Origin: Candidatus Omnitrophota bacterium
Lineage (GTDB): Bacteria; Omnitrophota; Gorgyraeia; Duberdicusellales; 4484-171
Assembly (NCBI GenBank): GCA_024231025.1
Contig: JAAEQW010000116.1
Location: forward strand, 1 to 62,629
Reading direction: 5' to 3'
DNA: 62,629 bases
This document shows, one piece after another, positions 1-62,629 of the stretch (position 1 is the stretch's first letter; each line of letters begins with the position of its first letter). Both the position numbers and the translations under genes were made by a program. The notes beneath the pieces were generated by a model. That model did no database searches and had not been told where the DNA came from. It saw only the letters and a list, made by a program, of their open reading frames with translations.

Positions 1-2
1 AA

Positions 3-6000: not shown

Positions 6001-7223
6001 CACGGCGTGCATTTCCAGTTGGTTCAAGGGAGCTTACCATAAGAGAAGATCTTGAGCCTGAATTACCTCCTCGCAAAGCTCGTCTTTCTCCCATGGTTAC
6101 GATTGAGCCGATGGAGCCAACAAAGCCAACAAAGGCAAGTGATTGGCAGCGTGAAGGTACAGAAGACTTAAACCTTGAGGGCCATATAAAGCGCCGCAAG
6201 CGAAGGGCAAACTCGTTGGAATGGTTGAAAGATGAAGAGGTCATCGACGAGATACTTTCTAGTGTTGCGGATAAAGATGACGACGATTCGGCTCCCGATG
6301 GTGCACCGGCGAATGTGTTTAAAATTGTTTTTGATGTTAGTGCTGCGGATGATGCTTATGATGAATTAGAGGAAGCGATTTTAGAGGAAGAGATTTCAGA
6401 GGAAGAGATTTTAGACGAAGATGAAATGGATGTTGATGGGATAGATAATGCCGCAATAGAAATAGACGCAGGTATGTTGCTTGATCCTGTTGATGAACCT
6501 GATTCTGAGGAAATAGTTCAAAGGAACATGATAAATGAAAACATAGGGATTAATGGTAATGACGTTACACTATCTTGGCTGATGAGTATGGTTAATCAAA
6601 AGAGGAAAGGTGCCCTAGGAAAGAGAAGCATTAGTCAGGCAACTATCAAGCGAGACACTAATCGCCTTGAAACAGCAGGTCTGGTTGAGAAAAAAATAGA
6701 ATCAGATGGTATCGTATTAATAATACCTACAGTAGAGCTAGATGACGAACAGGCAGGAGCTATTTATGCGGCGCTAACTAATGTTCCAAGGCGCTGGGAT
6801 CCAAGTGTAAAAGACGTTCAGGAAATCGTGCTTGGAGCTGTGGCGCAATGGCCAGTATTATATGGGAAAATAGAAGCAAATCAAAAACCAATTGCCTCTC
6901 CTTATCCGGGCGGCATTAAGGGTGGTATCGACTACGGCACGATGGATGCCACGGTAGATGTGCAAAACGAAGGCATCTATAAGATGACAATGCAGGAACT
7001 ACCATTTAAGGTTGAAAGTGTTGCCGGACTTCGGGCTAATGTTTTAATGGTATCAAAAATTGACGATCCTAACCAGGTCTTTGTTTCAAGAAGAAACAGG
7101 GAATTTGCCTCTTCAAAGGCACCGGTTAGGCCCAATCGTAAGCCTGTTCCAATGCCGCAGCCACTTTGCTTAGCTGCAGTAGCGATGATTAGAGAGAGGT
7201 CAAATAAAGTAGCTAAAAGCTAA
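3..7223 (+). CDS. Giant multidomain protein, 5'-truncated by the window edge (2406 codons visible); HEAT-like repeats, acidic tract, winged-helix-like segment; function unknown
   Basis: Track ORF 210..7223 stays open in the same frame back to base 3, with no in-frame stop and no ATG/GTG/TTG before 210. The upstream in-frame peptide NGRPFAPSTITSERRQLGK... is a paralogue of NGKPFAPSTITGERRQAGQ... encoded at 5359-5500 of the same ORF, so coding continues off the left edge. D/E-rich tract at ~6240-6500. SISQATIKRDTNRLETAGLVEKK (wHTH-like) at ~6624-6700. Confidence 0.85.
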   Translation, partial: NGRPFAPSTITSERRQLGKNYLEILTDGEWVSSPDRGREQAYRLSDDYRKLKRDNLKRALSGDLAAIEHMDSAMIPPMEFANVKRAVKGLFKLKPSTKEGSDAVAAAKARNAKVLSVFVKGSRNEDKNVRERCVRSLGTALERGIDIGEDGEKALEEALSDDDHFVREVAAAAIAKGLNSAGANTRVNTRVRRVTMLGSAFDLEGEIHIGEDVLAVLGRALKDPDEDVREAAVAVIAKGLNGANKTVLVRCITMLGDAIEEGIDIGDANFQTLEEALDSVYDNVLEAIAIAIAKGLDSRNPNIRANCIIIAANAIERKNDIGGYGIAATQKALFAKDEKVQKAAMQALRVGLSSTHEDLQSAYVTILVEALENGIKIEDDILDVLTKIVDKKDSPVRERVMEILEKELTAVDEAGASSDKQKKPSLKGQEGYWPVFSNMTNGLADILERIFSKEEKTPVVNPLLKPEERFDARVARVMKSFEDKFFYTEDEAQSIDLGSLDYSMYENGEIVNRFGVATRAIKKLVSGDKGQVMIKVRYLNGVFFTTEDVRLSIFEGKVIAYFKPYTPNPIYVDVSDQEILVGRDWDLLDHKVEEIFGSKDSVRSEGFVQSLYTTLVRPPIAVASGDSYLMKLRLRSSVLQGSATMEIESSIMPSSQLVDDKHFTKKRLFWKKKIGDISRDDVERALNEFIVRRLLVDRDPARELEEKRTEVFIDNVDNTNLSGLLRLEIIHKIISDVDNQEVVSALGRAIDALDLGEDGVAERLVGVRDAIRGLSVSGEDRFKSTYTSLQLLISGKFVRVLKDKNADRDSSVNKDEPVVADKDREEETVPAVEDNPSANKGRVKVFQTSPHPHYGQSTVEFYENDSAEELLEKLAHAISTLAKLLPEKGDMGILRHDPVLLRFLDVTVSERDSDQDIYNKVIKAISVKTFIATQLVGYEASDTSLEWFDGAMRYILDGAPSLTHLQTGGKINKDNFGSVGGWSDDRDPNGSPWQLLGEMAAVAHAIGWLASEDGLTLGGIMYYMIYSRSPSIVREELEILINLGVIEIAEVVDGTNHYRFVPTIRGLAGNSDMTGVSRIAHLLSRIREIDLGYRAYRRKGTKPLYWGSIPGAALDEAAELAQVEILHAYVEDIEHSKDVLHFLESDDSDRAGRLFEVAKLDPANDAIKEIATKLINQRVMQEKAVIKSWVDRILEQGNNSVPFSAPPVIIEALNQNIFTPKEIVDWMNQLLDRGDVWRMLTAALTITEAMKSDSFRESEGISGEIIATFASRMIGRFDVPVEGLGLGSHMADSIFTGETDESFFTQRTIQKLIDKLMKQGAINEAKMIADKFSEVNHPNSVDMEIINGDEAKESDDVAKAQKYLDEAIRLLAKVDSRKLDGLSFPVADTISIPYVSLAIDLVNWLEGQGKASKVHLEFRQYLKEGKRGMRLKQAVGYDNEVDRAVLEAWRAMKGRNVDGAMHGVSKVIHLLGNAEHDEAGETDSLENVSILLGVTRWLNSELAMEPKHLYLEQLVKAKKTGMELREALGYPSGLIDASKLTHVKVRFLCGNGFEPLPFFDFVKEMVRMGFKLEKASSVSDKSDSVSYKRLSAMMKRGDFDPADFYLEDVFFAKKSDDLWYAVVDKEHGSVSYKEFFNAIKASGLSLDDVEVGMNQEKTEAFLVEKSSLPNVADSAETMINGDAGPFNYLFGLSATSPMIASAVAQLNRAGKTDDARHLEEMSIEEGVTAEVILEDDDDPTSKGSPAGLLVFVANNDELLDELLKDRGVTDGEMAAIMIRHDRRNRQNGKPFAPSTITGERRQAGQDQLEIFVEGEKVSRSESRGQWSQAYRLNDQLRDLSRNRLIHTLKTLAAIEFMARASIPENEFEGVKTKAKRIIKEAFDQEALAVATRDGLIQQVVGLLNERASYQESVSDRDWEANTKAIVKLLRELGYKSDSQAKGIFLSLALSPRSGPKDVIIRELKELEALANAEKRVYPIMHPPSQEGGRVVLDVRLDPVARRAFPVGSRELTIREDLEPELPPRKARLSPMVTIEPMEPTKPTKASDWQREGTEDLNLEGHIKRRKRRANSLEWLKDEEVIDEILSSVADKDDDDSAPDGAPANVFKIVFDVSAADDAYDELEEAILEEEISEEEILDEDEMDVDGIDNAAIEIDAGMLLDPVDEPDSEEIVQRNMINENIGINGNDVTLSWLMSMVNQKRKGALGKRSISQATIKRDTNRLETAGLVEKKIESDGIVLIIPTVELDDEQAGAIYAALTNVPRRWDPSVKDVQEIVLGAVAQWPVLYGKIEANQKPIASPYPGGIKGGIDYGTMDATVDVQNEGIYKMTMQELPFKVESVAGLRANVLMVSKIDDPNQVFVSRRNREFASSKAPVRPNRKPVPMPQPLCLAAVAMIRERSNKVAKS
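400..1260 (+). repeat. HEAT/PBS-lyase-like helical repeat array (protein level) inside the left giant ORF
   Basis: Recurrent VRE(V/A)A.A.IAKGLN motifs with matching DNA: 497-540, 684-727 and 852-895 all contain ...gcaatagcaaaaggcttg.... They alternate with (E)RGIDIGEDG-type turns. Confidence 0.55.
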
Positions 7224-27700: not shown

Positions 27701-27817
27701 CGTGAAGTTGGACAAGGTTATGAATGTGGAATTAGCGTTGGGCTTGACAGTATTGCGCCCGACGATGTTATTGATGTTTTTAATGAGGAAATGGTAGCGC
27801 AACGCCTTAAATCATAG
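24710..27817 (+). CDS. nusA-infB: Single ORF encoding NusA (24710-25906) fused in frame to IF-2 (ATG 25907 onward)
   Basis: GTG start after AGGAGG. NusA N-terminal, S1 and KH domains, an HhH-like region, then [17 protein letters not shown]. No stop precedes [10 protein letters not shown]..., the IF-2 N-terminus. IF-2 G domain [25 protein letters not shown]. The codon-by-codon reading of 25859-25909 confirms the frames are continuous. Confidence 0.9.
25851..25909 (+). other. Poly(A)-rich lysine tract at the nusA/infB junction with an out-of-frame ATGA
   Basis: Three A7 runs (25878-84, 25889-95, 25901-07). In the +1 frame a TGA (25908-25910) overlaps the infB ATG (25907-25909), and that frame is open only back to the TGA at 25854-56. 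Confidence 0.8.
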
Positions 27818-52640: not shown

Positions 52641-52681
52641 AAAAGGGGTCAGGTCTAATCCGTACCAGGTGCCAATTAATT

Positions 52682-52743
52682 ATAGACCAAAGACAATAGA
52701 CCAAAGACAATAGACCAAAGACAATAGACCAAAGACAATAGAC
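52682..52743 (+). repeat. Tandem 14-bp repeat (atagaccaaagaca x4.4), family-C words
   Basis: Four perfect units at 52682-52737 plus a partial atagac. No spacers, so not a CRISPR array. Confidence 0.95.
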
Positions 52744-52790
52744 TCCCGCCTTTGGCGGGACAGACGCCGACTAAAGGCCAAAGAGTGGCT
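52744..52790 (+). repeat. G+C-rich palindromic element (tcccgcc-ttt-ggcggga + cagacgccgac)
   Basis: gactcccgcctttggcgggaca is identical over 22 nt to 53911-53932 inside the giant ORF. Confidence 0.85.
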
Positions 52791-53113
52791 TGTTTTGATT
52801 TCTAAAAGAACGTCTGAAAACCGTAAGCGGGCATGGTTTTTTGACGATAGTCAAAAAGAGCGAAGGTTTGAAGCCGAGCGAAAGCCAGCCTCGCTGGGGC
52901 TGGATAAGCGGTTCTGGAAGAAACAAAACAAGACACGAGCAGGGGGTAGATTAGTCGCAGGTGAAAACTATTTTTACTTCTTGTTTTTATTTATTCTTGC
53001 TCAAAAGTATTCTGAACTTACAACTTACGACTTACAACATACGACTGAAATGTAACCGCTTACAAAAAACTCAATAAAATCAAGCATTTCTATGGCATTT
53101 ATCCCGATGAATA

Positions 53114-53122
53114 TGGTATAAA
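53114..53122 (+). promoter_or_regulatory. Possible extended -10 element upstream of the right giant ORF
   Basis: TGgTATAAA (53114-53122) with only a weak -35. Followed by an A/T-only tract (~53140-53178). Confidence 0.25.
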
Positions 53123-53209
53123 CAAGCGATACCTATTATTATTAATAATAATATTACTATTACTATTAATATATAGGGGCGGGTTTTAAAATCGTCCGTC
53201 ATAAAAATT

Positions 53210-56200
53210 ATGAGAAAAGGAACAACACATTTTAAAGCGATTGCCAGTTTTTTGGCTACTGCAATATTTCTTTCTAGCTTTGCTGTTTATTTTAGCCAAT
53301 TGACAACAAAAAGTTATGCGTCAGTCCTTCCTTATATGCCATCGCCAACAAAATTACTTAAAGTAAGCGATCAATTTAATTATCCGGTTTTATGTGGAAT
53401 AAAGTTTTATCCGCAGGATCCATTCAAATTTGATTTTGTTATTGATAAAAAAGATTCTAATATCGCTGACGGAGAGATTAAAGAAGAAGCCTTAAAGTTG
53501 ATAAGATACTTTTTGTCTTCAGTGGCAATTCCCGAGGATGACCTTTGGGTTAATCTGTCGCCTCATGAGGAGAATTCAGTTATTCCTCACGAACTTGGTT
53601 TAACCGATTTGGGAAAAGATATGTTAGGTGAAGATTATGTTTTAAAACAACTCATGGCGTCATTGGTTTATCCTGAGGAACCGGTTGGTAAGAAATTTTG
53701 GGAGAAGGTTTATGCTCGTGCGTATGAATTGTATGGAACCACTAATATTCCAATTGATACTTTTAATAAGGTTTGGATTGTGCCCAAAACAGCAGTGATT
53801 TATGAAAATGGTAATAGTGCTTTTGTTGGTAAAGCGCACTTGAAAGTAATGCTTGGGGAGGACTACGTTGCCCTTCGACGAGCTCAGGATTCTACACAGC
53901 AACATAGTCAGACTCCCGCCTTTGGCGGGACAAGTGCCGACGATAGATTCCCGCCAAAGACGGGACAGGCGCCGACCAAAGACCAGATAAACAATATTTC
54001 ATCTCAGATAATGCGCGAAGTGGTTTTACCGGTAATTGAAGAGGAAGTCAATCAGGGCGAGCACTTCGCTATTTTGCGCCAAATTTACCATTCTTTAATT
54101 CTTGCAACCTGGTTCAAACGCCGTTTACGGCGTTCAATTGACAGTCTGCGGGGACATGTACCGAAAGCGCAGGCCGAAGGCCGAGAACGGTACGTGTCCC
54201 CGGAAGCAAAGACTAACATCCTAGACAAAATATACATTGATCAGAAGAAGATCAAAGGCATCGAAGGCACGGATCCTCAAATAAAAGATAAAATCTACAA
54301 TCAATACTTAGAAGCTTATAAAAAAGGTGTCTATAACTACATCAAACGCGATTACGACCAGCCTTCAGGCAAGCACGTTAACCGCAGGTATTTTTCTGGT
54401 GGTATGGCAATGCGTATTTTATCAAATATGGAAGTTATAGAGATAGATGAAAACTCTACAGAAAGCATGCCAGTGCCTCAGGCTCCAGTCGGAGGCACTT
54501 TCAATTTACTTGGCGTGGGATCCGGCGGCATTCTTATGAGCCCACCGCCAATACCTCCTGTGCCACCATCAGGAACTCCGCCTGGTTCGCCTTCTGACGG
54601 TCCGCCAAGAGGCGAAGGCGTCATCGCTAGAGTGGAGCGGTTACTTGCAGCTGGTAATTACGAACAAGCAAAAAACATGGCGGTAGATAAAATCAAAACC
54701 AAGGAGATTAGGAGCAAAGAAAAAATTGATCAATGGATGTATAAAATGCTAGGAAGTGCTCAGTGGCCTTGTGCTCGAGCAATAGTAGATGAGGCAATAG
54801 GGGTGGGAATTTTTACTAAAAATGAGATTATCGAATGGGTGGATGAATTAGTAAGGGAAAAGCACATTGACCACGCTCACGTTGTTATGATTGGAGCAAT
54901 AGAGAAAAATATTTTGCCTGGCAATGATGCCGATAAAGAGAAAATTAAAAAATGGATTAGTGATTTGACAGCGGCAAGGCATCCCATCGATGTTGGTCTT
55001 ATTAATCGGGCAATAACGTTAGCAAATGCCTTCAACAAAGATGAAATTATAGTTTGGGTGAATGAATTATTGGCGGAAGGAAGAAAACATGAGGGTACCT
55101 CTTGTGATATTATAGTCGCGGCAATCGAGAAAAAGATTCTAACCGTCGAGGATAAATCAATAATCATAAAATGGTTAGATCCATTAATGGATCAAGGATT
55201 TATTGGTGCAATTTACTTTATTGTATCTGCTGCAATAGAACATGATGTTTTTGATAACGAAGATGTTTCAGAGGCAATTCCAAAACTTGTAGGCGATGAA
55301 GATAGTGCAAAAAAACTCATCACCGAGTATTTCAATAAAAAAGGTTGGCTCCACACCGGTCTTAACCAAGATTGGGCGCAAGTGTTAGCAGGAGAAGACA
55401 TTGAAGAAAAGCTCAAAAACCATCACGATCAATATGTAGAAGTTATTCTAACCCCTGCCGGTGAAGAGCGCACTAAAGCGGCGATGGCCCTGCGGGAATG
55501 GTTGTATTTAGGTGGGAATAATAGCCCAACGCCGCTTACCAAGATTGAACTCGATATTGAGCTTCTTAATATGTACAAACTCCCTTGGGACGATTTCTGC
55601 GAAAAAAGAGCGCGCTTTGGTGATCGCATTTATGATGATCCGGCGGAAGTGGTTGCCGAGCTTATAGGGGGGCATGAATTTGGGGCCGAAGAACAAAAGC
55701 GGATTAGGTTTGTAGAATCGTATCTAGGCGGCAGAAGTTTTTCAGGAACAGTGGAGAGAATGACGGCAGAATATATTGTTGAGGGAAAGATTAAGAGCAA
55801 GGCAAAGATTTTTGAATGGATCGATCGGCTTGGGGATAACACTAGTGTGAAAAGTCTTGTCGATGCGGCCGTAAAAGCTGGAATTATTACATATGCAGAT
55901 AATGTCCGAGTTAAAGCCTGGGTGAACAGATTCTTAACTGACAGGAGATTTGTGGTTTCCTCATGTGACATTCTCCGCACGGCAATAAGGGCGAAGATTA
56001 TAACCAAGGAAGATAAATTAAAAGTTGAAGAATGGATCGACGAGTCTATAAGCCCAGGGAATAGTTTTCTGGTAAGTACTGCGATAACTGAGGCAATTGA
56101 TGGTGAAATTCTAGTTGACCAGGATAAGGAGAAAATTATTAAATGGGCCGATCAGATCGCAGGTTTGGACTACCATAAGGAAAAGGCAGGAGTTGCTCTT

Positions 56201-59200
56201 ATGGCAAAGGTGGGTGTCGAAAAAGAAATATTTAGCAAAAAAGACATTATTGCCTGGTTTGATCGATTGATAGCTGAAGCGCTTTGGGATTATGCCAGTG
56301 CAATTTCTCAGGCAGCGCGTAGTTGTGATCTTTACGATCGGCACGATGCCCTGGAAGCGATTGAGAAATTAAGAGGAGACGATCCAAGCCGGGGCGATCC
56401 AATTGTTTCTTATTTTTTCAATAAAGACATGTGGATCCATACAGGCATTAATGAAACCTGGGCGCAGGTATTGGGCGATCCGAAATTTGAGGAAATGATC
56501 CAAACTCCGCACAAGCAATTTGTTGGGTACCCGCGTGATATGTATAGAAAAGTGATTACTGCCACGGGCGAAGACCGTCTTTTAAAAGCGATGGCTCTAA
56601 GGGAGTGGATGTTCCTGGGAGGGCCTTTGAGTCCTAAGTCATTTCATGAGATTAAGATTGATCCAGTTTTGGTTGACCTCTATCGTTTACGCTGGGACGA
56701 CTTCTGCGAAAAAAGAGCGCGCTTTGGTGATCGGATTTACGATGATCCGGCGGGAGTGGTTGGTGAGCTTATAGCAGGGCACACATTCCCAGATGAGCAA
56801 GATGACCAGTCGCCACCACCATCCGCACCATCTTCGTTACCACCATCCTCAGATTCACCTGTAGTGAGCGAAGTCGAACTACCACAAGGAGGTTCTTCTG
56901 CGGAGGCTAAGCTTATTGTCGAGGTGGATCGGTTGATTGAGGAAGAGAATTTCGATGATGCAAAAAGATTAACAATAGATGGAATAAAGGATGGAACTAT
57001 TAAGGGTAAAACAAAAATTCGAAAATGGGTGAATCAATTGATAGAGAAAAATGCAATAACTCCTGCCAAGGCTATTGCAATCATAGCAATAGAGGCAAAG
57101 ATTTTTACTAAAGATGAGATTACAGAATGGATTGATGGACTATTAGCGAAAGGTGGAGTGGATGTGCGCGTTGTCAGTCCTATTACGTGTACGGCGATAA
57201 AAGCAAAAATCTTAACTCGTGACAACGAAGCGAAGATTGTAACATGGGTGGATGGGTTGGTAAATATAGGTGATAGGTATCTTGCTGGCCTTATCGTTGT
57301 TGCAGCAATCGAGGCAAATATTTTGACTGGTCAAAATAAACTAAAGGTTGAAGAATGGATAGATGAATTAATAAAGGAACGAATTAGGACCGACATTATA
57401 GTCGCGGCAATAAAATCAGAGATCTTAACCCGTGATGACAAACCAAAAATCATAGTATGGATAGATGAATTGGTGAAGAGAGAGGATGACGGAGAAGGTT
57501 GGGGTTATGCCTTTGATATCGCCGTCGCAGCAATAGAGTGCAATGTTCTTGACGGGGTTGATGCGTTGAATGTAATTTCAAAGTTTATAGGTAGTGAGTA
57601 TGAAGAAGAAGTGGGAGGTCTCGTTACTAAATTCCTTGATACTGGCAAATGGTTCCACACTGACGTTCCCCAAGATTGGGCGCGAGTTTTAGATTATCCC
57701 GAGATTGAGAACAGGCTCAAAAACCACTGTGACCAATATACCAAAATTATTCTGACCCCTGCCGGTGAAGAGCGCACTAAAGCGGCAATGGCCCTGCGGG
57801 AGTGGTTGTTTTTAGGTGGGGATGAAAGCTCCAAACCGATTGCAGATATTAAACTCGACATAGAACTCCTTAATATGTACAAACTCCCTTGGGAAAAGTT
57901 CTGCAAACAAAGAGTGCGGTTTAGTGATAATGATATCTATAACCGGCCTAAAGAGGTTGTTGCCCAGCTTGTGGGGGAGAATGCGTTTGAGGGCGGAGAC
58001 AATCCAGAATTAATCGCTAAGATCGATCGGTTGATTGCGCAGAATAAACATCAAGAAGCAAGAATTTTAGTAGTAGAAAAAATTGTAGATTGGGTTGATA
58101 AACTACTAGTAAAAGGAACAATGCACCATAGCGAAGCTATTGCCATTGCAGTAATAAAGCCAGGGGTTTTTACCGATAACGATAAAGGAAAAATTTTAGA
58201 GTGGATGGAACAGTGGAAAGAAAACCATATAAGAGGATTTCGTTTGATAAATATATCCCCAGTAATAGAAGCAAAGATTCTAACCCGCGAAAATGTATCA
58301 AAGATCATGGAGTGGATAGATTTGTTGATAGAAAAGGGAGATTGTTCTTCTGCTAAGGATGTCGCATTTGCAGCAATAGAAGGGAATATTTTCTATACGG
58401 CGGATGCTTTAGGAGTAATTTCAAAATTTACTCATTATAAGAAAGAGTTTGAAGCAAAACAATTTGCCACCGAATTTCTCGATAAGGGTCGATGGCTCCA
58501 CACCGGTCTTAACCAAGATTGGGCGCAAGTATTAATAGGGGCAAACATCGAAAAGAGACTAAAAGACCACCGCGATGAATATATAGAAGTTATTCTAGCC
58601 CCTGCCGGCGAAGAACGCACTAAAGCGGCAATGGCCCTGCGGGAGTGGTTGTTTTTAGGTGGGGACGAGAGATCTAAACTGTTTGCTGAAATTGAACTTG
58701 ATACAGAGCTTCTTGATCTTTACCGCTTACGCTGGGACGACTTCTATTATCAAAGAGCGCGGTTTAGCAATGACGATATCTATAATAATCCTAAAAAGGT
58801 TGTTACCCGGCTTGTGGAGGCGTATGTGTTTGAAAGTGATGAATCGCAGCTTATTATCGGAATTGATCGGTTGATTACACAGAAGAGATATCAAGAGGCA
58901 AGAATTTTAGCAGTTAAAAGAATTGCAGCAGGTGAAATTGCAGACAAAGAAAAGATTGTAGATTGGGTTAATAAATTGCTAGTGAAAGGAGCAAGAGCTC
59001 ACAGCGAAGCCATTGCCGTTGCAGCAATAAAGATAGAGATTTTTACTGAGAACGATAAAGGAAAAATTTTAGAGTGGATGGAACAGTGGAAAGAAAACCA
59101 CATAGGGGGATTTTGTTTGATGAGTGTACCCCCTGCAATAGAAGCGAAAATTTTAACTCGTGACAATAAAACAAGGATTATAGAATGGGTAGATTCGTTG

Positions 59201-62200
59201 ATAGAAAGAAGAGATTATTGTTCTGCCAAGGATGTCACATTTGCAGCAATAGAGGGGAATATTTTCTATGCGGCCGATGCTTTGGTAATTTTAAAACTTG
59301 TTCATTATAAAATAGAGTTTGAAGCAAAACAATTTGCTACCGAATTCCTCGATAAGGGCAAATGGTTCCATACCGATGTTCCCCAAGATTGGGCGCAGGT
59401 GTTAACAGGGGCAAATATCGAAGAGATGCTCAAAGACCACCGTGATCAATATATTGAAGTCATCCTAGCCCCTGCCGGCGAGCAACGCACTCTTCGTGCG
59501 ATGGCCCTGCGCGAGTGGTTGTACCTAGGTGGGAATGAGAGCCCTACAGCACTTAGCGATATCACTCTCGACCCAATCCTCATTGATTTCTACAAACTCC
59601 CTTGGGAAAAGTTCTGCAAACAAAGAGCGCGCTTTGGTGATCGGATTTACGATGATCCGGCGGGAGTGGTTGGTGAGCTTATAGCAGGGCACACATTCCC
59701 AGATGAGCAAGATGACCAGTCGTCACCACCATCCGCACCACCTTCGTTACCACCTCCTTCAGGCCCACCTGTAGTGAGCGAAGCCGAATTATCTCAAGGA
59801 GGTTCTTCTGCGGAGGCTAAGCTGATTACTGAGATTTACAGGTTGGTTGAGACAAGGGAGTATTCAGAAGCAAAAGATTTAGCGGTAAAAGGGATTAAGC
59901 GGGGAGATATCAATAATAAAGAGAAGATTCAAGAATTGGGTATTTGGTTAGCAAAAAAGACTCGATCGACTTCCATTTCAGTTGATGATATCTATCCCAT
60001 TACAGTTGCTGCAGTAGAAGCTAGAATTTTTAATCAAGATGAAATTATGGATTGGGTGGATGAATTTCGAAAAATAGATGATGCAACTGTAGCAAGCAAG
60101 ACTGCCCTTGCCGCAGTGGAAGCTGGAATTTTCAACACAGATGAAATTGTTAAATGGGTTTACAGGTTAACAGTAGAAAGAAGGGGGCAAGGGGGTGCGA
60201 TTGTTGCTTGTCATATGGTTGAGATGTTGATAATGGAGCGTAAACCCTTTAATAATAAAGAAATTATAGAATGGGTGGATATATTACTAGACGCAGAAAG
60301 TCTTTATATTTCTACTGCCATTGTGGTCAGTGCGATAAAAGCAAAGATTTTAACCAGTTACGACAAGACAAAGGTTATGGAGTGGTCGATGCGGTTTTCG
60401 CATGAATCACTCGATGGCAAGATAGTTACTAGCCCTATAGTGGTAGCAGCGATAAATGAGCACATTTTAACTAGCGACGATAAAACAACAGTTCTGGAAT
60501 TGATCGATAAAATAGCAAACGCAAGTAACGTTTTGGATACATTATCGCCTATAGCGGTAGCAGCGATAAATGAGCACATTTTAACTAGCGACGATAAAGC
60601 AACAGTTCTGGAATTGATTGATAAAATAGCAAACGAAAATGACAATTCGGATATATTGTGGCCCATGGTGGCGGCAGCGATTAATAAGCGCATTTTAACT
60701 AGCGACGATAAGGCAAAGGTTGTGGAATGGATTAATAAAAGATTGACCAAGAATGCAATTTTGATCGATCTTCCTTCTAACGAATTTGTCCTTGTGGCCA
60801 AAAAAGAAGAACTGTTTGATTCCAGTGATGTTTTATGGCTGGTTAATAAATATATTGAACATGGGCAAAGAGATCAAGCCATAGAATTCATCATTGAACT
60901 TATTAAAGAGAATCAATGGCTCCACACCGGTCTTAACCAGGATTGGGCGCAGGTGTTGGCAGGAGAAGACATTGAAGAAATGCTCAAGGGTCACCAAGAT
61001 CAATACGCCGAAGTCATTCTAACCCCTGCTGGTGAAGAGCGCACTAAAGCGGCGATGGTCCTGCGAGAGTGGTTGTACTTAGGTGGGGATGAGAGTTCCA
61101 AATCGCTTGCTGAGATTGCACTCGACATTGAACTCCTTGATCTTTATCGTTTGCGTTGGGGTGATTTCTGCGAAAAAAGAGCGCGCTTTGGTGATCGGGT
61201 TTATGATGAGCCGGCGGGAGTGGTTGAGGAGTTTGCCGGAGACCATGAGTTTGAGGGTGATGGAGGCAACCCAGAATTAGTTGCCGAAGTAGATCGATTG
61301 ATTGAGGTAGGGGAATACGAAGAAGCAAAAGATCTCACCACCAAATTACTTGATACTGGCAAATGGCTCCACACCGACGTTTCCCAAAACTGGGCGAAAG
61401 TGCTTGATGATCCAGTAGTTGAAGAGATGCTTAAGCATTACCGTGATGATTATGTGGCGATGATTCTTGCTCCGTCTACCGAGCGTCTCTCTCGGGCGAT
61501 GGCTTTAAAGGAAGCGTGTTACCTTCGGTCAATCGGCCAAGGCGAAAATCCTTCCGACATCAAACTCAGCCGCATCCTTGCACATTTCTACAAACTCCCC
61601 TGGGAAGAGTTTCATAAAGAGAGAATGCGCGATAGTAATAGTATTTATCATGATCCAGAAATGTGGTCTCTCGATATCGCGGATAAGTATGAATATGAGA
61701 GTAGTCAAGATATTCTAGGAGTAATTGCTGAAATTGACCGGATAGTTGCGAAGGAAAACTATAGAGAGGCGAGGATTTTAGCGGTAGGACATATAAAAGC
61801 TGGGAGAATTAATGATAAAACAAAGATTAAATTTTGGGTAGATGAATTGTTGGCTCAAACCGGTAGTTTACATTCTTCAACTAGCGGCAATGCAATCGCG
61901 GTTGCGGCAGTACAAGCAGATCTTTTTACTAAACGAGAAATCCAATCCTGGATAGATGAATTATTGGCTCGGAGTGATGTTGAGAGTACGGCAGGGTGTG
62001 CTCGTGACATTGTAGTTGATGTAATCGAAAGAGATATTTTTACTCAAGAATACAAAGAAGTCATTCAAGCTTGGGTAGGCATAATGTTAGATCGAAGGGA
62101 TGCATTTGGTGCACATGGCAGCTGGGGCATTACGAGTGCGGCAATAGAAAAGGAAATCTTCGGCGCGCCAGAAGTATTGCCGATAATCACAAGACTTCTA

Positions 62201-62629
62201 GATTATTGGGGTGATCATGAGGCAAAAGAACTCATTACTAAATGTTTTGATAAAAACAAATGGCTCCACACTGACGTTCCCCAAGACTGGGCGCAGGTGC
62301 TGGATGATTCAGTAGCTGAAGGTATCCTCAAGCATTACCATGATGATTATACGGCAATGATTCTCGCTCCGTTTGCTGAACGTCTCCCTCGAGCGATGGC
62401 TTTAAAGGAAGCGTGTTACCTTCGGTCAATCAACCAGGTCAAAGATTCTTCCCAAATTGTTCTCGACCCAATCCTCATTGATTTCTATAAACTCCCTTGG
62501 GAAAAGTTTTGCGAACAGAGAGCGCGCTTTGGTGATCGCATTTATGATGAGCCGGCGGGAGTGGTTGGTGAGCTTATAGCAGGGCACACATTCCCAGATG
62601 AACAAGATGACCAGTCGCCACCACCATCC
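53210..62629 (+). CDS. Giant secreted/surface repeat protein, 3'-truncated by the window edge (3140 codons visible, no stop); not in the supplied ORF track
   Basis: I translated this frame codon by codon from ATG 53210 (in-frame TAG at 53174-76 upstream) to base 62629 and met no stop. N-terminal signal/anchor MRKGTTHFKAIASFLATAIFLSSFAVYFSQ...SYA. About 430-aa head domain (LWVNLSPHEEN..., NKVWIVPK..., HFAILRQIYHSLILATWFKRRL). Pro-rich linkers at 54541-54612, 56810-56862, 59720-59772 and 62618 onward. Eight in-frame copies of a ~110-aa W(L/F/I)HT...W(A)..VL...PAGEERTKAAMALREWL.LGG...LPW..FC.KRARFGDRIYDDPAGVV domain, with Trp codons at 55346, 56432, 57650, 58493, 59363, 60917, 61364 and 62261. 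Arrays of ~38-aa AI.AAIEAKILT..DK.KI.EWIDEL helical repeats lie between them. Confidence 0.9.
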   Translation, partial: MRKGTTHFKAIASFLATAIFLSSFAVYFSQLTTKSYASVLPYMPSPTKLLKVSDQFNYPVLCGIKFYPQDPFKFDFVIDKKDSNIADGEIKEEALKLIRYFLSSVAIPEDDLWVNLSPHEENSVIPHELGLTDLGKDMLGEDYVLKQLMASLVYPEEPVGKKFWEKVYARAYELYGTTNIPIDTFNKVWIVPKTAVIYENGNSAFVGKAHLKVMLGEDYVALRRAQDSTQQHSQTPAFGGTSADDRFPPKTGQAPTKDQINNISSQIMREVVLPVIEEEVNQGEHFAILRQIYHSLILATWFKRRLRRSIDSLRGHVPKAQAEGRERYVSPEAKTNILDKIYIDQKKIKGIEGTDPQIKDKIYNQYLEAYKKGVYNYIKRDYDQPSGKHVNRRYFSGGMAMRILSNMEVIEIDENSTESMPVPQAPVGGTFNLLGVGSGGILMSPPPIPPVPPSGTPPGSPSDGPPRGEGVIARVERLLAAGNYEQAKNMAVDKIKTKEIRSKEKIDQWMYKMLGSAQWPCARAIVDEAIGVGIFTKNEIIEWVDELVREKHIDHAHVVMIGAIEKNILPGNDADKEKIKKWISDLTAARHPIDVGLINRAITLANAFNKDEIIVWVNELLAEGRKHEGTSCDIIVAAIEKKILTVEDKSIIIKWLDPLMDQGFIGAIYFIVSAAIEHDVFDNEDVSEAIPKLVGDEDSAKKLITEYFNKKGWLHTGLNQDWAQVLAGEDIEEKLKNHHDQYVEVILTPAGEERTKAAMALREWLYLGGNNSPTPLTKIELDIELLNMYKLPWDDFCEKRARFGDRIYDDPAEVVAELIGGHEFGAEEQKRIRFVESYLGGRSFSGTVERMTAEYIVEGKIKSKAKIFEWIDRLGDNTSVKSLVDAAVKAGIITYADNVRVKAWVNRFLTDRRFVVSSCDILRTAIRAKIITKEDKLKVEEWIDESISPGNSFLVSTAITEAIDGEILVDQDKEKIIKWADQIAGLDYHKEKAGVALMAKVGVEKEIFSKKDIIAWFDRLIAEALWDYASAISQAARSCDLYDRHDALEAIEKLRGDDPSRGDPIVSYFFNKDMWIHTGINETWAQVLGDPKFEEMIQTPHKQFVGYPRDMYRKVITATGEDRLLKAMALREWMFLGGPLSPKSFHEIKIDPVLVDLYRLRWDDFCEKRARFGDRIYDDPAGVVGELIAGHTFPDEQDDQSPPPSAPSSLPPSSDSPVVSEVELPQGGSSAEAKLIVEVDRLIEEENFDDAKRLTIDGIKDGTIKGKTKIRKWVNQLIEKNAITPAKAIAIIAIEAKIFTKDEITEWIDGLLAKGGVDVRVVSPITCTAIKAKILTRDNEAKIVTWVDGLVNIGDRYLAGLIVVAAIEANILTGQNKLKVEEWIDELIKERIRTDIIVAAIKSEILTRDDKPKIIVWIDELVKREDDGEGWGYAFDIAVAAIECNVLDGVDALNVISKFIGSEYEEEVGGLVTKFLDTGKWFHTDVPQDWARVLDYPEIENRLKNHCDQYTKIILTPAGEERTKAAMALREWLFLGGDESSKPIADIKLDIELLNMYKLPWEKFCKQRVRFSDNDIYNRPKEVVAQLVGENAFEGGDNPELIAKIDRLIAQNKHQEARILVVEKIVDWVDKLLVKGTMHHSEAIAIAVIKPGVFTDNDKGKILEWMEQWKENHIRGFRLINISPVIEAKILTRENVSKIMEWIDLLIEKGDCSSAKDVAFAAIEGNIFYTADALGVISKFTHYKKEFEAKQFATEFLDKGRWLHTGLNQDWAQVLIGANIEKRLKDHRDEYIEVILAPAGEERTKAAMALREWLFLGGDERSKLFAEIELDTELLDLYRLRWDDFYYQRARFSNDDIYNNPKKVVTRLVEAYVFESDESQLIIGIDRLITQKRYQEARILAVKRIAAGEIADKEKIVDWVNKLLVKGARAHSEAIAVAAIKIEIFTENDKGKILEWMEQWKENHIGGFCLMSVPPAIEAKILTRDNKTRIIEWVDSLIERRDYCSAKDVTFAAIEGNIFYAADALVILKLVHYKIEFEAKQFATEFLDKGKWFHTDVPQDWAQVLTGANIEEMLKDHRDQYIEVILAPAGEQRTLRAMALREWLYLGGNESPTALSDITLDPILIDFYKLPWEKFCKQRARFGDRIYDDPAGVVGELIAGHTFPDEQDDQSSPPSAPPSLPPPSGPPVVSEAELSQGGSSAEAKLITEIYRLVETREYSEAKDLAVKGIKRGDINNKEKIQELGIWLAKKTRSTSISVDDIYPITVAAVEARIFNQDEIMDWVDEFRKIDDATVASKTALAAVEAGIFNTDEIVKWVYRLTVERRGQGGAIVACHMVEMLIMERKPFNNKEIIEWVDILLDAESLYISTAIVVSAIKAKILTSYDKTKVMEWSMRFSHESLDGKIVTSPIVVAAINEHILTSDDKTTVLELIDKIANASNVLDTLSPIAVAAINEHILTSDDKATVLELIDKIANENDNSDILWPMVAAAINKRILTSDDKAKVVEWINKRLTKNAILIDLPSNEFVLVAKKEELFDSSDVLWLVNKYIEHGQRDQAIEFIIELIKENQWLHTGLNQDWAQVLAGEDIEEMLKGHQDQYAEVILTPAGEERTKAAMVLREWLYLGGDESSKSLAEIALDIELLDLYRLRWGDFCEKRARFGDRVYDEPAGVVEEFAGDHEFEGDGGNPELVAEVDRLIEVGEYEEAKDLTTKLLDTGKWLHTDVSQNWAKVLDDPVVEEMLKHYRDDYVAMILAPSTERLSRAMALKEACYLRSIGQGENPSDIKLSRILAHFYKLPWEEFHKERMRDSNSIYHDPEMWSLDIADKYEYESSQDILGVIAEIDRIVAKENYREARILAVGHIKAGRINDKTKIKFWVDELLAQTGSLHSSTSGNAIAVAAVQADLFTKREIQSWIDELLARSDVESTAGCARDIVVDVIERDIFTQEYKEVIQAWVGIMLDRRDAFGAHGSWGITSAAIEKEIFGAPEVLPIITRLLDYWGDHEAKELITKCFDKNKWLHTDVPQDWAQVLDDSVAEGILKHYHDDYTAMILAPFAERLPRAMALKEACYLRSINQVKDSSQIVLDPILIDFYKLPWEKFCEQRARFGDRIYDEPAGVVGELIAGHTFPDEQDDQSPPPS
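53908..53985 (+). repeat. Two adjacent G+C-rich palindromic elements embedded in frame in the giant ORF
   Basis: tcccgcc-ttt-ggcggga (53914-30) and tcccgcc-aaa-gacggga (53949-65), each followed by ca(a/g)g(t/c)gccgac. They match the intergenic copy at 52741-52775. They encode SQTPAFGGTSADDRFPPKTGQAPTKDQ. Confidence 0.8.
54141..54214 (+). repeat. 15-bp-stem G+C palindrome embedded in frame in the giant ORF
   Basis: cggggacatgtaccg (54149-63) pairs with cggtacgtgtccccg (54188-202), with ggcc-gaa-ggcc in the loop. The right arm plus flank (cggtac.tgtccccg...agact) recurs at 7534-7558 in intergenic DNA. Confidence 0.8.
58025..59375 (+). repeat. Tandem duplication of a ~870-nt (~290-aa) module within the giant ORF
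   Basis: 58025-58500 is collinear with 58865-59375 (gatcggttgatt...caagaagcaagaatttta...aacgataaaggaaaaattttagagtggatggaacagtggaaagaaaacca...). The W.HT codons are 870 nt apart (58493 and 59363). Confidence 0.85.
60434..60775 (+). repeat. Three tandem 114-nt (38-aa) units within the giant ORF
   Basis: Units start at 60434, 60548 and 60662. The first two are near-identical (cctatag.ggtagcagcgataaatgagcacattttaactagcgacgataaa.caacagttctggaattgat.gataaaatagcaaacg). This is the source of the repetitive antisense track ORF 60358..60801. Confidence 0.9.

What the first reader, a model, noticed from the sequence alone, without database searches (positions are those of the whole stretch)
53210..62629. 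Giant secreted hierarchical-repeat ORF missing from the ORF track (at least 3,140 codons, still open at the window end)
This is the most striking object in the window. The supplied track shows only short antisense ORFs across 53.2-62.6 kb because the real ORF has no stop inside the window.

Reading from ATG 53210, the visible product has four parts:
- a signal peptide or membrane anchor;
- a ~430-aa non-repetitive head domain (LWVNLSPHEEN..GLTDLGKDMLGEDYVLKQLMASLVYPEE...NKVWIVPK...ILRQIYHSLILATWFKRRL) that I recognise only as a recurrent domain of unknown function;
- Pro-rich linkers;
- at least three ~970-aa super-modules.

Each super-module combines arrays of ~38-aa amphipathic helical repeats with copies of a ~110-aa domain: W[LF]HT..NQDWAQVL...PAGEERTKAAMALREWLYLGG...LPW..FCEKRARFGDRIYDDPAGVV.

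I see no known catalytic, adhesin (Ig, cadherin, RTX, haemagglutinin), collagen-like or Rhs/YD signatures. A signal-peptide-bearing, linker-segmented alpha-solenoid fibre of unknown length suggests a cell-surface or cell-cell-contact structure. From memory, giant genes have been reported in some uncultivated lineages such as Omnitrophota and linked to epibiotic or predatory lifestyles; I cannot verify that connection here.
Basis: partly seen in the sequence, partly recalled or inferred. Interest (0 to 1): 0.9.

Follow-up and report, generated by a model that had tools for sequence, protein, structure and literature searches.

The report
Truncated giant secreted repeat protein, Omnitrophota-type
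The window ends in the first 3,140 codons of a very long, exported, all-helical repeat protein of the kind already known from the tiny host-dependent bacteria called Omnitrophota; its building blocks match no described family and its function is still only inferred.

Summary
Frame 1 from ATG 53210 is open for all 3,140 codons to the last base. The window is a whole 62,629-bp contig, so the gene is cut by the contig end.

The product has four parts:
- a Sec signal peptide;
- a ~390-aa head domain;
- Pro/Ser-rich linkers;
- eight modules, each made of 0-8 helical hairpin repeats of ~38 aa (37 in all) capped by a ~113-aa "W.HT" domain.

The modules group into super-modules with linker-to-linker periods of 970 and 965 aa, after a shorter first one. 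The copies are diverged (60-95% nt identity) and under purifying selection (dN/dS 0.14-0.57). They are therefore not assembly inflation or a pseudogene.

The head is the N-terminal domain of a large family in Omnitrophota-labelled MAGs (at least 909 protein clusters, at least 547 loci). It is always N-terminal behind a signal peptide. In 57 of 62 complete relatives it is paired with a conserved ~60-aa C-terminal "GGIDL...PVIINI" tail around a hypervariable body. Neither head nor tail is in Pfam or NCBIfam.

The W.HT cap is very rare: six other representatives among 1.84 billion proteins.

AlphaFold gives an alpha-solenoid for the modules and an alpha/beta fold with no PDB match for the head.

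Function is inferred only: an exported acidic scaffold. This is a new member of a known kind, the very long proteins of Omnitrophota.

The parts
52641..53209 (+). 569-bp intergenic leader upstream of the giant ORF.
   Evidence: - It carries short tandem repeats: ATAGACCAAAGACA x4.4 at 52682-52743, a 14-mer x2.2 at 53016-53046, and an AT-rich 18-mer at 53134-53172.
- A G+C-rich hairpin lies at 52744-52760.
- There is no convincing sigma-70 promoter on the + strand ahead of the ATG, and no clear Shine-Dalgarno sequence.
53210..53320 (+). Sec-type signal peptide (aa 1-37): MRKGTTHFK, then a hydrophobic core, then SYA|SV.
   Evidence: - Hydropathy peak of 1.79 at aa 8-26.
- In 61 of 62 relatives with a complete N-terminus, a hydrophobic 12-mer (hydropathy >= 2.0) follows 2-3 K/R and is followed by x-[YFH]-A-Q just before the conserved LPxPGxMV motif.
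- No dedicated signal-peptide predictor was available.
53321..54403 (+). Head domain (aa 38-398), ending in the family motif RRYFSGG.
   Evidence: - The HMM built from 52 relatives matches with E = 9e-165, and it is the only copy in all six frames of the window.
- At least 909 homologous protein clusters at 40-54% identity and at least 547 loci in GTDB species genomes.
- AlphaFold model: pLDDT 74.5, pTM 0.70, mixed alpha/beta.
- Foldseek finds no match with E < 0.001 against PDB or BFVD.
- No Pfam, NCBIfam or PDB-sequence match.
54404..54616 (+). Disordered stretch plus Pro-rich linker 1 (aa 399-469; SPPPIPPVPPSGTPPGSPSDGPP).
   Evidence: pLDDT is below 50 for aa 397-464. The proline runs are listed.
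54617..55717 (+). Module 1 (aa 470-836).
   Evidence: Six 38-aa hairpin repeats (aa 494-686) and a W.HT cap at aa 713-825 (nt 55346-55684)..
55718..56809 (+). Module 2 (aa 837-1200). It ends super-module 1.
   Evidence: - Five repeats (aa 857-1023) and a W.HT cap at aa 1075-1194 (nt 56432-56791), which has a 7-aa insertion.
- The junction motif lies at 56774-56805.
56810..56902 (+). Pro/Ser-rich linker 2 (aa 1201-1231; SPPPSAPSSLPPSSDSP).
56903..57994 (+). Module 3 (aa 1232-1595).
   Evidence: Six repeats (aa 1267-1447) and a W.HT cap at aa 1481-1594 (nt 57650-57991)..
57995..58864 (+). Module 4 (aa 1596-1885).
   Evidence: - Four repeats (aa 1616-1733) and a W.HT cap at aa 1762-1875 (nt 58493-58834).
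- 75% nt identity to module 5, with dN/dS 0.33.
58865..59725 (+). Module 5 (aa 1886-2172). It ends super-module 2.
   Evidence: - Four repeats (aa 1912-2031) and a W.HT cap at aa 2052-2164 (nt 59363-59701).
- This is the module that was modelled: pLDDT 87.5, pTM 0.74, 17 helices and no strands.
- The junction motif lies at 59684-59715.
59726..59806 (+). Pro/Ser-rich linker 3 (aa 2173-2199).
59807..61285 (+). Module 6 (aa 2200-2692).
   Evidence: - Eight repeats (aa 2235-2514) and a W.HT cap at aa 2570-2682 (nt 60917-61255).
- It includes the only near-tandem DNA array in the gene: 114 nt x2.7 at 60434-60740, 86% matches.
61286..61726 (+). Module 7 (aa 2693-2839): a W.HT cap with no 38-aa repeats.
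   Evidence: W.HT at aa 2719-2831 (nt 61364-61702). It is the most divergent copy, 34% identical to copy 1.
61727..62611 (+). Module 8 (aa 2840-3134). It ends super-module 3.
   Evidence: - Four repeats (aa 2868-2984) and a W.HT cap at aa 3018-3130 (nt 62261-62599).
- The last 169 nt of the contig are 95% identical to 59566-59734.
62612..62629 (+). First six codons of Pro-rich linker 4. The contig ends here, so the gene continues for an unknown length.
   Evidence: - Contig length equals window length.
- No continuation was found in GTDB genomes, JGI metagenomes or IMG/VR.
3..7223 (+). 3' part (2,406 codons) of a second long gene, cut by the contig start. It shares the 38-aa repeat type with the giant ORF.
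   Evidence: - Frame 3 is open from nt 3.
- Codons 1-92 are 54% identical (E = 1e-23) to aa ~1787-1879 of the same ORF, and the match runs across the ATG at 210, so that ATG is not the start.
- Three hits of the 38-aa repeat HMM at aa 1170-1320.
- HEAT repeats near the visible N-terminus.
- KGGID lies 100 aa before the stop, but the tail HMM score is not significant.

Best explanation
**What it is.** This is the 5' part of a very long gene of an Omnitrophota-type bacterium, cut off by the end of the contig. It belongs to a phylum-wide family built as: signal peptide, ~390-aa head, hypervariable body, ~60-aa C-terminal tail. The tail of this member lies beyond the contig.

**How it most likely works.**
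1. The Sec system exports the protein and signal peptidase I cuts after SYA37. This step is supported by sequence.
2. The head, probably together with the tail, is the constant handle that the cell uses to sort, anchor or further secrete all members of the family. This step is inferred from the architecture alone.
3. In this member the variable body is a chain of eight acidic alpha-solenoid modules. Each module is a stack of ~38-aa helix-turn-helix repeats closed by a W.HT helical cap. The fold is shown by the structure model.
4. Flexible Pro/Ser linkers tie the modules into super-modules. This is shown by the sequence.
5. A body like this carries no catalytic signature. It most plausibly acts as an elongated, multivalent protein-binding scaffold in the envelope or on the surface of a host-dependent cell. 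This is inference.
For: **Real coding sequence**
- Open frame of 3,140 codons, against 102-327 stops in the other frames.
- Copies are diverged (60-95% nt identity) with dN/dS 0.14-0.57 and dS from 0.55 to above 3. The duplications are old and selected, not an assembly artefact.

**Contig truncation**
-.

**Export**
- N-terminal K/R, a hydrophobic core and SYA|S.
- The same layout occurs in 61 of 62 relatives.
- Pro/Ser-rich linkers; by general knowledge these are common in secreted multidomain proteins.

**Family**
- Head HMM E = 9e-165, one copy in the window.
- At least 909 protein clusters.
- At least 547 loci in GTDB species genomes. Of the 79 fetched, 55 are labelled Omnitrophota, Omnitrophica or Aceula, 23 "Planctomycetales" and 1 "bacterium".
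- The head is always N-terminal, one per protein. Complete ORFs run 361-3,331 aa, and 17 of 79 run off a 10-kb flank.
- 57 of 62 complete ORFs end in the GGIDL...PVIINI tail.
- 63 of the 74 tail-bearing ORFs also have the head. Most of the other 11 are cut at a locus edge or by N-runs.
- Bodies differ from member to member: methyltransferase, receiver domain, ABC1 kinase, PGK, ankyrin, SNF2, NHL, NUDIX, HEAT.

**Fold of the body**
- Module model has pLDDT 87.5 and 17 helices.
- The best Foldseek matches are TPR, PPR and Puf solenoids, but all weak.
- Net charge is -132.

**Literature**
- Omnitrophota carry many very long proteins; about 94% have a signal peptide or TM helices.
- "Tandem-repeat scaffold" is a recognised class, and 137 of 916 have no hit in any domain library.
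Against: - No signal-peptide or topology predictor was run. The hydrophobic core is long (about 19 aa), so an uncleaved anchor is possible.
- Nothing shows where the protein ends up after Sec, and no binding partner is known.
- No secretion genes flank the gene. Its upstream neighbours are panB, apbE, queF, recO and ybeY, and no conserved neighbour exists across 79 family loci.
- Many family bodies are enzymes that use cytoplasmic substrates (NUDIX, kinases, PGK), which fits awkwardly with an extracellular location.
- The tail cannot be checked for this member.
- The organism's phylum is inferred only from the head family, not from marker genes.
- The module's multiple alignment had only eight paralogous rows, so the model could overstate regularity.
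Confidence: 0.55

Rival explanations
1. Membrane-tethered periplasmic scaffold. The N-terminal hydrophobic helix is not cleaved. It acts as a signal-anchor, so the whole solenoid chain hangs from the inner membrane into the periplasm rather than being released or surface-displayed.
For: - The hydrophobic stretch is about 19 residues, long for a cleaved signal peptide.
- AlphaFold models aa 6-32 as one continuous helix.
- Published topology surveys find most long Omnitrophota proteins membrane-anchored.
Against: - A small-x-Ala motif sits at a fixed distance before the conserved mature N-terminus in nearly all relatives. This is what a signal peptidase I site looks like.
- No other TM-like segment appears in 3,140 aa. 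The only other stretch above the hydropathy threshold (aa 2358, 1.67) lies inside a repeat helix.
Confidence: 0.2
2. Polyprotein precursor. The Pro/Ser linkers, or the short acidic junctions between modules, are processing sites. The gene product is cut into units of about 300-970 aa that act separately.
For: - The junction sequence GHTFPDEQDDQSPPPS is kept almost identical three times (1 mismatch in 32 nt) while the flanking modules have diverged.
- In the remote W.HT relatives, most caps are followed by a conserved peptide such as LPKPEATDM or ATDMAG.
- West-Roberts et al. raise cleavage of giant proteins as a possibility.
Against: - No protease domain lies in the visible part of the protein or next to the gene.
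- High conservation of the junction is equally explained by gene conversion or recent recombination between super-modules.
- There are no proteomic data.
Confidence: 0.12
3. RNA- or nucleic-acid-binding solenoid of the PPR or Puf type.
For: The top Foldseek matches of the module include mitoribosomal PPR protein mS39, designed PPR proteins and Puf4. The repeat length of about 38 aa is close to PPR (35) and Puf (36).
Against: - All those matches have E > 0.3 and TM-scores of 0.39 or less.
- The protein is strongly acidic, with net charge -132.
- It carries a signal peptide.
- No Pfam PPR or PUF hit.
Confidence: 0.03
4. Artefact: an assembly-inflated or chimeric repeat region, or a decaying pseudogene.
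For: - Both contig ends fall inside repeat-rich long genes. The last 169 nt are 95% identical to an internal copy, so the assembler clearly struggled here.
- No read data were available.
Against: - No two copies are identical; most are 60-82% identical at DNA level.
- There is no stop in 9.4 kb.
- dN/dS is well below 1 in all 33 comparisons for which it could be computed; dS was saturated in the other 4.
- The invariant residues of the cap are kept in all eight copies.
Confidence: 0.05

Closest known systems
Very long or 'giant' proteins of Candidatus Omnitrophota, in particular the 'tandem-repeat scaffold' and Pfam-dark classes (West-Roberts et al. 2023, bioRxiv 10.1101/2023.11.21.568195; Nielsen & Lui 2026, bioRxiv 10.64898/2026.06.07.730766)
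   Same: - Same lineage, judged from the head family.
- N-terminal signal peptide.
- An N-terminal region with no library domain.
- A long internally repeated body.
- Diverged rather than identical nucleotide repeats.
- Truncation at a contig boundary.
- No hit in domain libraries.
   Different: - Only 3,140 aa are visible, so the size class (10 kAA or more, or above 30 kAA) cannot be claimed.
- The visible part has none of: SecA-DEAD, C39 or S8 peptidase, dockerin, TSP3 repeats, the glycosyltransferase/NUDIX enzyme set, or internal TM helices.
- I found no description of the head-tail cassette or the W.HT cap in either paper.
The six remote W.HT-domain proteins found here (P0122, 6,703 aa and complete, from an ENA contig; P0123-P0127)
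   Same: - Same module logic: an array of ~37-38-aa helical repeats closed by a cap with the shared core DW..vL ... ER..Am..K ... YKLPW..FC, repeated 2-7 times per protein (6-7 in P0122) except for the single cap of P0127.
- P0125 has the same repeat type.
   Different: - They have a different N-terminal leader and no head domain (HMM E > 0.1).
- P0122 and P0127 also share a long non-repeat region, which in P0122 carries P-loop motifs and faint AAA-family hits.
- Most caps are followed by a conserved ATDM-type peptide that is absent here.
- P0125 has TM segments between modules.
Alpha-solenoid repeat proteins (HEAT/ARM, TPR, PPR, Puf)
   Same: Stacked helix-turn-helix repeats of 34-40 aa form an elongated superhelix. 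By general knowledge such proteins usually act as binding scaffolds.
   Different: - No Pfam repeat model matches.
- Foldseek similarity is weak, with E > 0.3.
- The repeat signature (..AAIEAkIlT.dDK.kIieWiDeLi..g) and the dedicated cap domain are its own.
Cellulosomal scaffoldins and other secreted multi-module proteins joined by Pro/Thr/Ser linkers
   Same: Signal peptide, repeated non-catalytic modules, and Pro/Ser-rich flexible linkers between modules.
   Different: No cohesin, dockerin or carbohydrate-binding module is detected. The modules are all-helical, not beta-sandwiches.
Two-partner-secretion exoproteins (TpsA, e.g. filamentous haemagglutinin, CdiA)
   Same: Signal peptide, then a conserved N-terminal domain shared by a family, then a very long repetitive body, with variable content between family members.
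   Different: - The head is alpha/beta with no TPS (Haemagg_act) match.
- The body is alpha-helical, not a beta-helix.
- No TpsB-like neighbour.
- The family has a conserved C-terminal tail rather than a variable C-terminal toxin.

Membership tests
Omnitrophota giant / very long proteins (West-Roberts 2023; Nielsen & Lui 2026) | Length at or above the class threshold (>= 10,000 aa in Nielsen & Lui; > 30,000 aa in West-Roberts) | not testable with these tools
   3,140 codons are visible and the contig ends inside the gene. No continuation contig was found.
Omnitrophota giant / very long proteins (West-Roberts 2023; Nielsen & Lui 2026) | Encoded by a member of phylum Omnitrophota | tested here: inconclusive
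   Indirect only. The head domain's relatives are mostly in Omnitrophota-labelled MAGs: 55 of 79 fetched loci, with 23 labelled Planctomycetales by automated third-party assemblies. No marker-gene placement of this contig was possible.
Omnitrophota giant / very long proteins (West-Roberts 2023; Nielsen & Lui 2026) | Signal peptide and/or transmembrane helices | tested here: met
   An N-terminal signal-peptide-like segment, conserved across the family. This rests on a heuristic, not a trained predictor.
Archaeovorin-type giant proteins (West-Roberts 2023) | Glycosyltransferase, methyltransferase, glycosyl hydrolase, peptidase and NUDIX domains; SecA-DEAD domain | tested here: not met
   None of these appears in the visible 3,140 aa. 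They could still lie in the missing part. Other head-family members do carry methyltransferase and NUDIX domains.
Dockerin-type giant proteins (West-Roberts 2023) | [quoted passage not shown] | tested here: not met
   No PF00404 or PF18884 hit.
Head-tail family defined here | N-terminal signal peptide followed directly by the ~390-aa head domain (LPxPGxMV ... WVNLSPYE ... TFNKVWI ... RKYFSGG) | tested here: met
   HMM E = 9e-165, aligned to aa 13-425. 40-54% identity to more than 100 relatives.
Head-tail family defined here | C-terminal ~60-aa tail GGIDLNP...GFxPVIINIxPxxNLPxLLG | not testable with these tools
   The C-terminus lies beyond the contig end. The tail is present in 57 of 62 complete relatives.
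HEAT/ARM, TPR or PPR repeat families | Significant match to the family's repeat profile | tested here: not met
   The giant ORF has no such Pfam hit at E <= 0.1. ORF A at the other contig end does have HEAT_2 (E = 5e-10).
HEAT/ARM, TPR or PPR repeat families | Alpha-alpha hairpin solenoid fold | tested here: inconclusive
   The model is all-helical with paired helices. Foldseek matches to TPR, PPR and Puf structures are weak: E 0.3-3, TM-score 0.39 or less.
Two-partner secretion TpsA exoproteins | TPS domain (Pfam Haemagg_act) after the signal peptide, and a beta-helical passenger | tested here: not met
   No Pfam hit. The head is alpha/beta with no PDB match, and the body is helical.

The most novel reading that the evidence does not exclude
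The head and the GGIDL tail together form a previously undescribed, phylum-wide export or anchoring cassette. It would be a sorting-signal pair that lets Omnitrophota send almost any body, from a 400-aa enzyme to a giant repeat protein, to the envelope, the surface or a host cell. In this reading the W.HT-capped solenoid modules are docking units of a modular surface scaffold used in host or prey contact.
Probability: 0.2. Interest if true: 0.8.

Novelty: new member of a known kind. Interest (0 to 1): 0.5.

Why it matters
Omnitrophota are very small bacteria, and published work infers a host-dependent or predatory life for many of them. Their huge genes are among the least understood objects in microbial genomics, and how such proteins are exported and what they bind is an open question.

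This contig does not answer that question, but it gives three concrete handles:
1. **A constant head and a constant tail frame hypervariable bodies.** This holds in hundreds of proteins of the phylum. It points to one shared sorting or anchoring route that could be tested with a small family member instead of a giant one.
2. **The body here is a clean, confidently modelled alpha-solenoid.** It is built from a repeat and a cap domain that are almost unique in public data, and both are small enough to express and use as bait.
3. **Both contig ends break in such genes.** This shows how routinely short-read MAGs hide them.

If the cassette idea is wrong, the gene remains one more orphan long repeat protein of a lineage already known for them.

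Tried and rejected
**Domain libraries**
- Pfam FAD_binding_9 (27 bits, above its cut-off of 23) is rejected. No single stretch passes; the score is a sum of weak 40-aa matches inside the repeated W.HT caps, to part of a beta-barrel domain, whereas the caps are helical.
- kleA_kleC, PBD, ComJ, SPIN and FimV_Cterm are all below their cut-offs.
- Pfam and NCBIfam scans of the family tail found nothing.
Its P-loop motifs were read by eye, and its AAA-family hits come only from faint precomputed records.

**Homology searches for the body**
- Word-indexed searches with one W.HT copy and with the eight-module alignment found nothing. Only the exhaustive profile search found relatives.
- Scans of GTDB genomes, JGI metagenomes and IMG/VR with the W.HT profile found nothing.
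- An exact 32-mer from the contig end found nothing in JGI metagenomes. The rest of the gene was therefore not recovered.

**Structure comparisons**
- Foldseek of the head against PDB and BFVD, and of the module against PDB, gave no match with E < 0.001.
- PDB sequence and profile searches found nothing.

**Genome context**
- I considered that the gene at the contig end and ORF A at the contig start are one gene on a small circle, and rejected it. The frames do not join: the end is in frame 1 and the start is open only in frame 3. The contig also carries ordinary chromosomal housekeeping genes.
- ORF A as the tail-bearing 3' end of a head-family gene is only suggested. KGGID sits at the right distance from the stop, but the tail HMM score is -1.4 bits.
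- A search for a conserved neighbour gene across 79 family loci found none. The only recurrent cluster is an antisense ORF inside the head.
- Exact look-ups of the window's PanB and of P0001 in the contig index found no record.

**Literature**
- Searches for the tail motif and for a conserved N-terminal domain in Omnitrophota found nothing relevant.


Full report
**1. The observation**

Translating 53210-62629 on the + strand gives 3,140 codons with no stop. The other five frames of the same stretch have 102-327 stops, so the open frame is far beyond chance.

The nearest upstream in-frame stop is at 53174-53176, and ATG 53210 is the first start codon after it. The mechanical ORF list shows only two short antisense ORFs here, because it leaves out ORFs that run off the source.

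An identical 3,140-aa protein is on record from a single NCBI contig whose length equals the window, 62,629 bp. The window is therefore a whole contig, and the gene is cut by the contig end, not by the choice of window.

**2. Anatomy**

*Signal peptide (aa 1-37).* Three K/R are followed by a 19-aa hydrophobic core and SYA|S.

*Head (aa ~38-398).* It ends in RRYFSGG.

*Linkers.* aa 399-469 are modelled as disordered and include the first proline-rich linker. Further Pro/Ser linkers lie at aa ~1201-1231 and ~2173-2199, and a fourth begins at aa 3135.

*Modules.* Between the linkers lie eight modules. An iterated HMM finds 37 copies of a ~38-aa unit with the pattern ..AAIEAkIlT.dDK.kIieWiDeLi..g. 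They are distributed 6, 5, 6, 4, 4, 8, 0 and 4 over modules 1-8. Each module ends in a ~113-aa domain that starts W[LFI]HT. The eight copies share 24 invariant residues, including W31, H33, T34, W40, R72, Y107, W111, F114 and P129 of the alignment.

*Super-modules.* The junction sequence that closes each super-module occurs three times, at 56774, 59684 and 62579. The periods are 2,910 and 2,895 nt, that is 970 and 965 aa. The first super-module is shorter, about 750 aa.

**3. The repeats are real**

- At DNA level most copies are 60-82% identical. The best pair is 95% over 169 nt at the very end of the contig.
- The only near-tandem DNA array is 114 nt x2.7 at 60434-60740.
- Nei-Gojobori comparison of modules and of cap domains gives dN/dS of 0.14-0.57, with dS from 0.55 to saturation.

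These are old duplications kept under purifying selection. Identical, assembly-inflated copies or a decaying pseudogene would look different. The contig does end inside the most conserved repeat, which explains why assembly stopped there. Copy number beyond the end is unknown.

**4. The head domain**

*Distribution.* A word-indexed search with aa 1-470 found at least 909 protein clusters at 40-54% identity. Nearly all named ones are "Candidatus Omnitrophota/Omnitrophica", and several come from the same MAG. Of the 79 loci fetched, 55 are labelled Omnitrophota, Omnitrophica or Aceula (an Omnitrophota genus). Another 23 are labelled "Planctomycetales" in automated third-party assemblies, and one is labelled "bacterium". 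The best match, at 54%, is a marine planktonic Omnitrophota MAG.

*Position and copy number.* In all 79 loci the head is at the N-terminus of its ORF, with at most 65 codons of open frame upstream, and it occurs once per protein. The window has exactly one copy (E = 9e-165).

*Signal peptide across the family.* In 61 of 62 relatives with a complete N-terminus, 2-3 K/R and a strongly hydrophobic 12-mer precede x-[YFH]-A-Q and then the conserved LPxPGxMV. This is the classical layout of a signal peptidase I substrate. No trained predictor was available.

*No known relative.*
- The head has no Pfam or NCBIfam model.
- It has no PDB relative by sequence or profile.
- Its AlphaFold model (pLDDT 74.5, pTM 0.70; three beta-hairpins packed against about ten helices) has no Foldseek match with E < 0.001 in PDB or BFVD.

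**5. A family architecture that emerged from the relatives**

- Complete ORFs that start with the head are 361-3,331 aa long (median about 1,500), and 17 of 79 run off a 10-kb flank, so they are at least 3,660 aa.
- When 21 long members were aligned, a conserved C-terminus appeared. In total 57 of 62 complete ORFs carry a GG[IV][DNS][LFM] motif within their last ~140 aa. The ~60-aa tail built from these has the consensus kGGIDLNPakLnLQtkgdGkgvplPldpqeLenlqIeGFvPVIINItPvtNLPlLLG, usually followed by a short variable extension.
- Among all ORFs in the loci, 63 of the 74 with the tail also have the head. Most of the other 11 are cut at a locus edge or by runs of N.
- 14 of 76 loci hold two or three head-bearing ORFs in tandem on the same strand.
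- The bodies between head and tail are unrelated to one another: methyltransferases, receiver domains, ABC1 kinase, phosphoglycerate kinase, ankyrin, SNF2 helicase, NHL, NUDIX, HEAT, GNAT, and also HD, GT2, HAD, TPR and metallophosphatase.
- None of the 79 contains the W.HT cap or the 38-aa repeat.
- The tail is not in Pfam or NCBIfam.
- No neighbouring gene is conserved across the loci.
- I found no description of this head-tail cassette in the two giant-gene papers or in full-text searches.

**6. The body**

*Rarity.*
- Word-indexed searches found no relative of the W.HT cap or of whole modules.
- An exhaustive profile search of 1.84 billion representative proteins found only seven proteins with E <= 0.001. 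One is the window's own protein. The others are P0122 (6,703 aa, E = 2e-26, 6-7 copies) and P0123-P0127 (E from 1e-12 to 8e-4).
- Scans of GTDB genomes, JGI metagenomes and IMG/VR found nothing.

*The remote relatives.*
- They share the module logic. Arrays of 37-38-aa helical repeats are closed by a cap with the common core DW..vL ... ER..Am..K ... YKLPW..FC.
- They have other leaders and no head.
- P0122 is a complete gene among ordinary genes on a 117-kb contig. It also carries P-loop motifs and faint precomputed AAA-family hits.
- P0125 has TM segments between modules.
- In the relatives most caps are followed by a conserved ATDM-type peptide that the window protein lacks.

*Fold.* AlphaFold models module 5 with pLDDT 87.5 and pTM 0.74, as 17 helices and no strands. 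The nearest PDB folds are TPR, PPR and Puf solenoids, but only weakly (E >= 0.33, TM-score 0.39 or less). The protein is acidic, with net charge -132. Apart from the signal peptide, the only stretch above the hydropathy threshold (aa 2358, 1.67) lies inside a repeat helix.

**7. Surroundings**

- The rest of the contig is ordinary chromosomal housekeeping on the + strand. By reading the translations it includes enolase, ispG, proS, a NusA-IF2 ORF, trpS, ruvB, tgt, trmD, guaA, dnaE, hisS and aspS. By Pfam it includes YbeY, RecO, QueF, ApbE and PanB directly upstream of the giant ORF. No secretion genes are adjacent.
- G+C is 0.36-0.40 in the housekeeping part and 0.42-0.43 in both long genes.
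- The other contig end is also inside a long gene. Frame 3 is open from nt 3 to 7223, which is 2,406 codons.
- The first 92 codons of that ORF are 54% identical (E = 1e-23) to aa ~1787-1879 of the same ORF. The match runs across the ATG at 210, so that ATG is not the start.
- That ORF carries HEAT repeats and three copies of the same 38-aa repeat.
- It has KGGID 100 aa before its stop, but the tail HMM does not support a tail (-1.4 bits).
- The two long ORFs are not one gene on a small circle, because the frames do not join.

**8. Explanation**

*Shown or strongly supported:*
- a real, selected coding sequence;
- truncation by the contig end;
- a Sec-type signal peptide;
- membership in the head family, through the head;
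- an alpha-solenoid body with flexible linkers.

*Inferred:*
- The head, with the tail, is the constant sorting or anchoring handle of the family.
- This member's body is a multivalent binding scaffold in the envelope or on the surface.

*Rivals:*
- an uncleaved anchor that holds the chain in the periplasm;
- processing at the conserved junctions into separate units;
- a nucleic-acid-binding solenoid, disfavoured by the charge and the signal peptide;
- an artefact, disfavoured by divergence and dN/dS.

*Unresolved tension.* Many family bodies are enzymes that normally work on cytoplasmic substrates. West-Roberts et al. met the same puzzle for the giant proteins. It fits either delivery into another cell or a wrong topology, and nothing here decides between the two.

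**9. Comparison and novelty**

Very long proteins are a known hallmark of Omnitrophota. Published catalogues hold thousands of proteins of 10 kAA or more, about 80% of them sequence singletons. About 94% have a signal peptide or TM helices, and "tandem-repeat scaffold" is a named class. Of 916 examined, 137 had no hit in any domain library.

This gene is a new member of that known kind. It cannot be filed in the size-defined "giant" class, because its length is unknown. In its visible part it fails the Archaeovorin and Dockerin domain criteria.

Beyond the literature I could read, two things are new: the head-tail cassette seen across the phylum, and the near-orphan W.HT-capped solenoid module. 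That justifies moderate interest, not the 0.9 first assigned.

Noticed in passing
window 3-7223 (+): The contig also starts inside a long gene. Frame 3 is open from nt 3 for 2,406 codons. The first 92 codons repeat an internal segment of the same ORF (54% identity, E = 1e-23), so the ATG at 210 is not the start. The ORF has HEAT repeats, three copies of the giant ORF's 38-aa repeat, and a KGGID motif 100 aa before the stop that the tail HMM does not support.
   Followed up: partly
loci L001-L079 (GTDB genomes), e.g. L033:10001-16537, L067, L045: Head-family proteins almost always end in a conserved ~60-aa tail (GGIDLNP...GFxPVIINIxPxxNLPxLLG): 57 of 62 complete ORFs. 14 of 76 loci hold 2-3 family genes in tandem on the same strand. 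Neither head nor tail is in Pfam or NCBIfam.
   Followed up: partly
window 24710-27817 (+): NusA and IF-2 are encoded as one 1,035-aa ORF (NusA_N, S1, KH_5, HHH_5, then IF2_N, GTP_EFTU, IF-2). They are joined by a Lys-rich stretch encoded by an A-rich tract around 25860-25910. An ATGA at the IF-2 start would give the usual overlapping stop/start if NusA were in the +1 frame. This is either a true fusion or a 1-nt homopolymer error.
   Followed up: partly
window 52641-53209: The 569-bp leader of the giant ORF holds a perfect 14-bp tandem repeat (ATAGACCAAAGACA x4.4, 52682-52743) next to a G+C-rich hairpin (52744-52760). It also holds a second 14-mer repeat (53016-53046) and an AT-rich 18-mer repeat (53134-53172) just before the start codon.
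   Followed up: no
window 1-7223 and 53210-62629 versus the rest: Both long genes have higher G+C (0.415-0.433) than the housekeeping genes between them (0.35-0.40). GC skew is positive throughout, consistent with all genes lying on one replication arm.
   Followed up: no
window 21693-22934 (+): A T2SSE-family ATPase (CpaF/TadA-like, E = 1e-53) sits alone between ispG-like and proS-like genes. It is 30 kb from the giant ORF, and no other secretion or pilus genes are visible.
   Followed up: no
P0122 on L080:10001-30112; also P0124, P0127: In the remote W.HT relatives most caps are followed by a short, strongly conserved peptide (LPKPEATDM, ATDMAG). This looks like a processing or recognition site, and it is absent from the window protein.
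   Followed up: no
window 15558-15634 (+): A single tRNA-Met (CAT) is the only RNA gene that Rfam or ARAGORN detects on the contig.
   Followed up: yes
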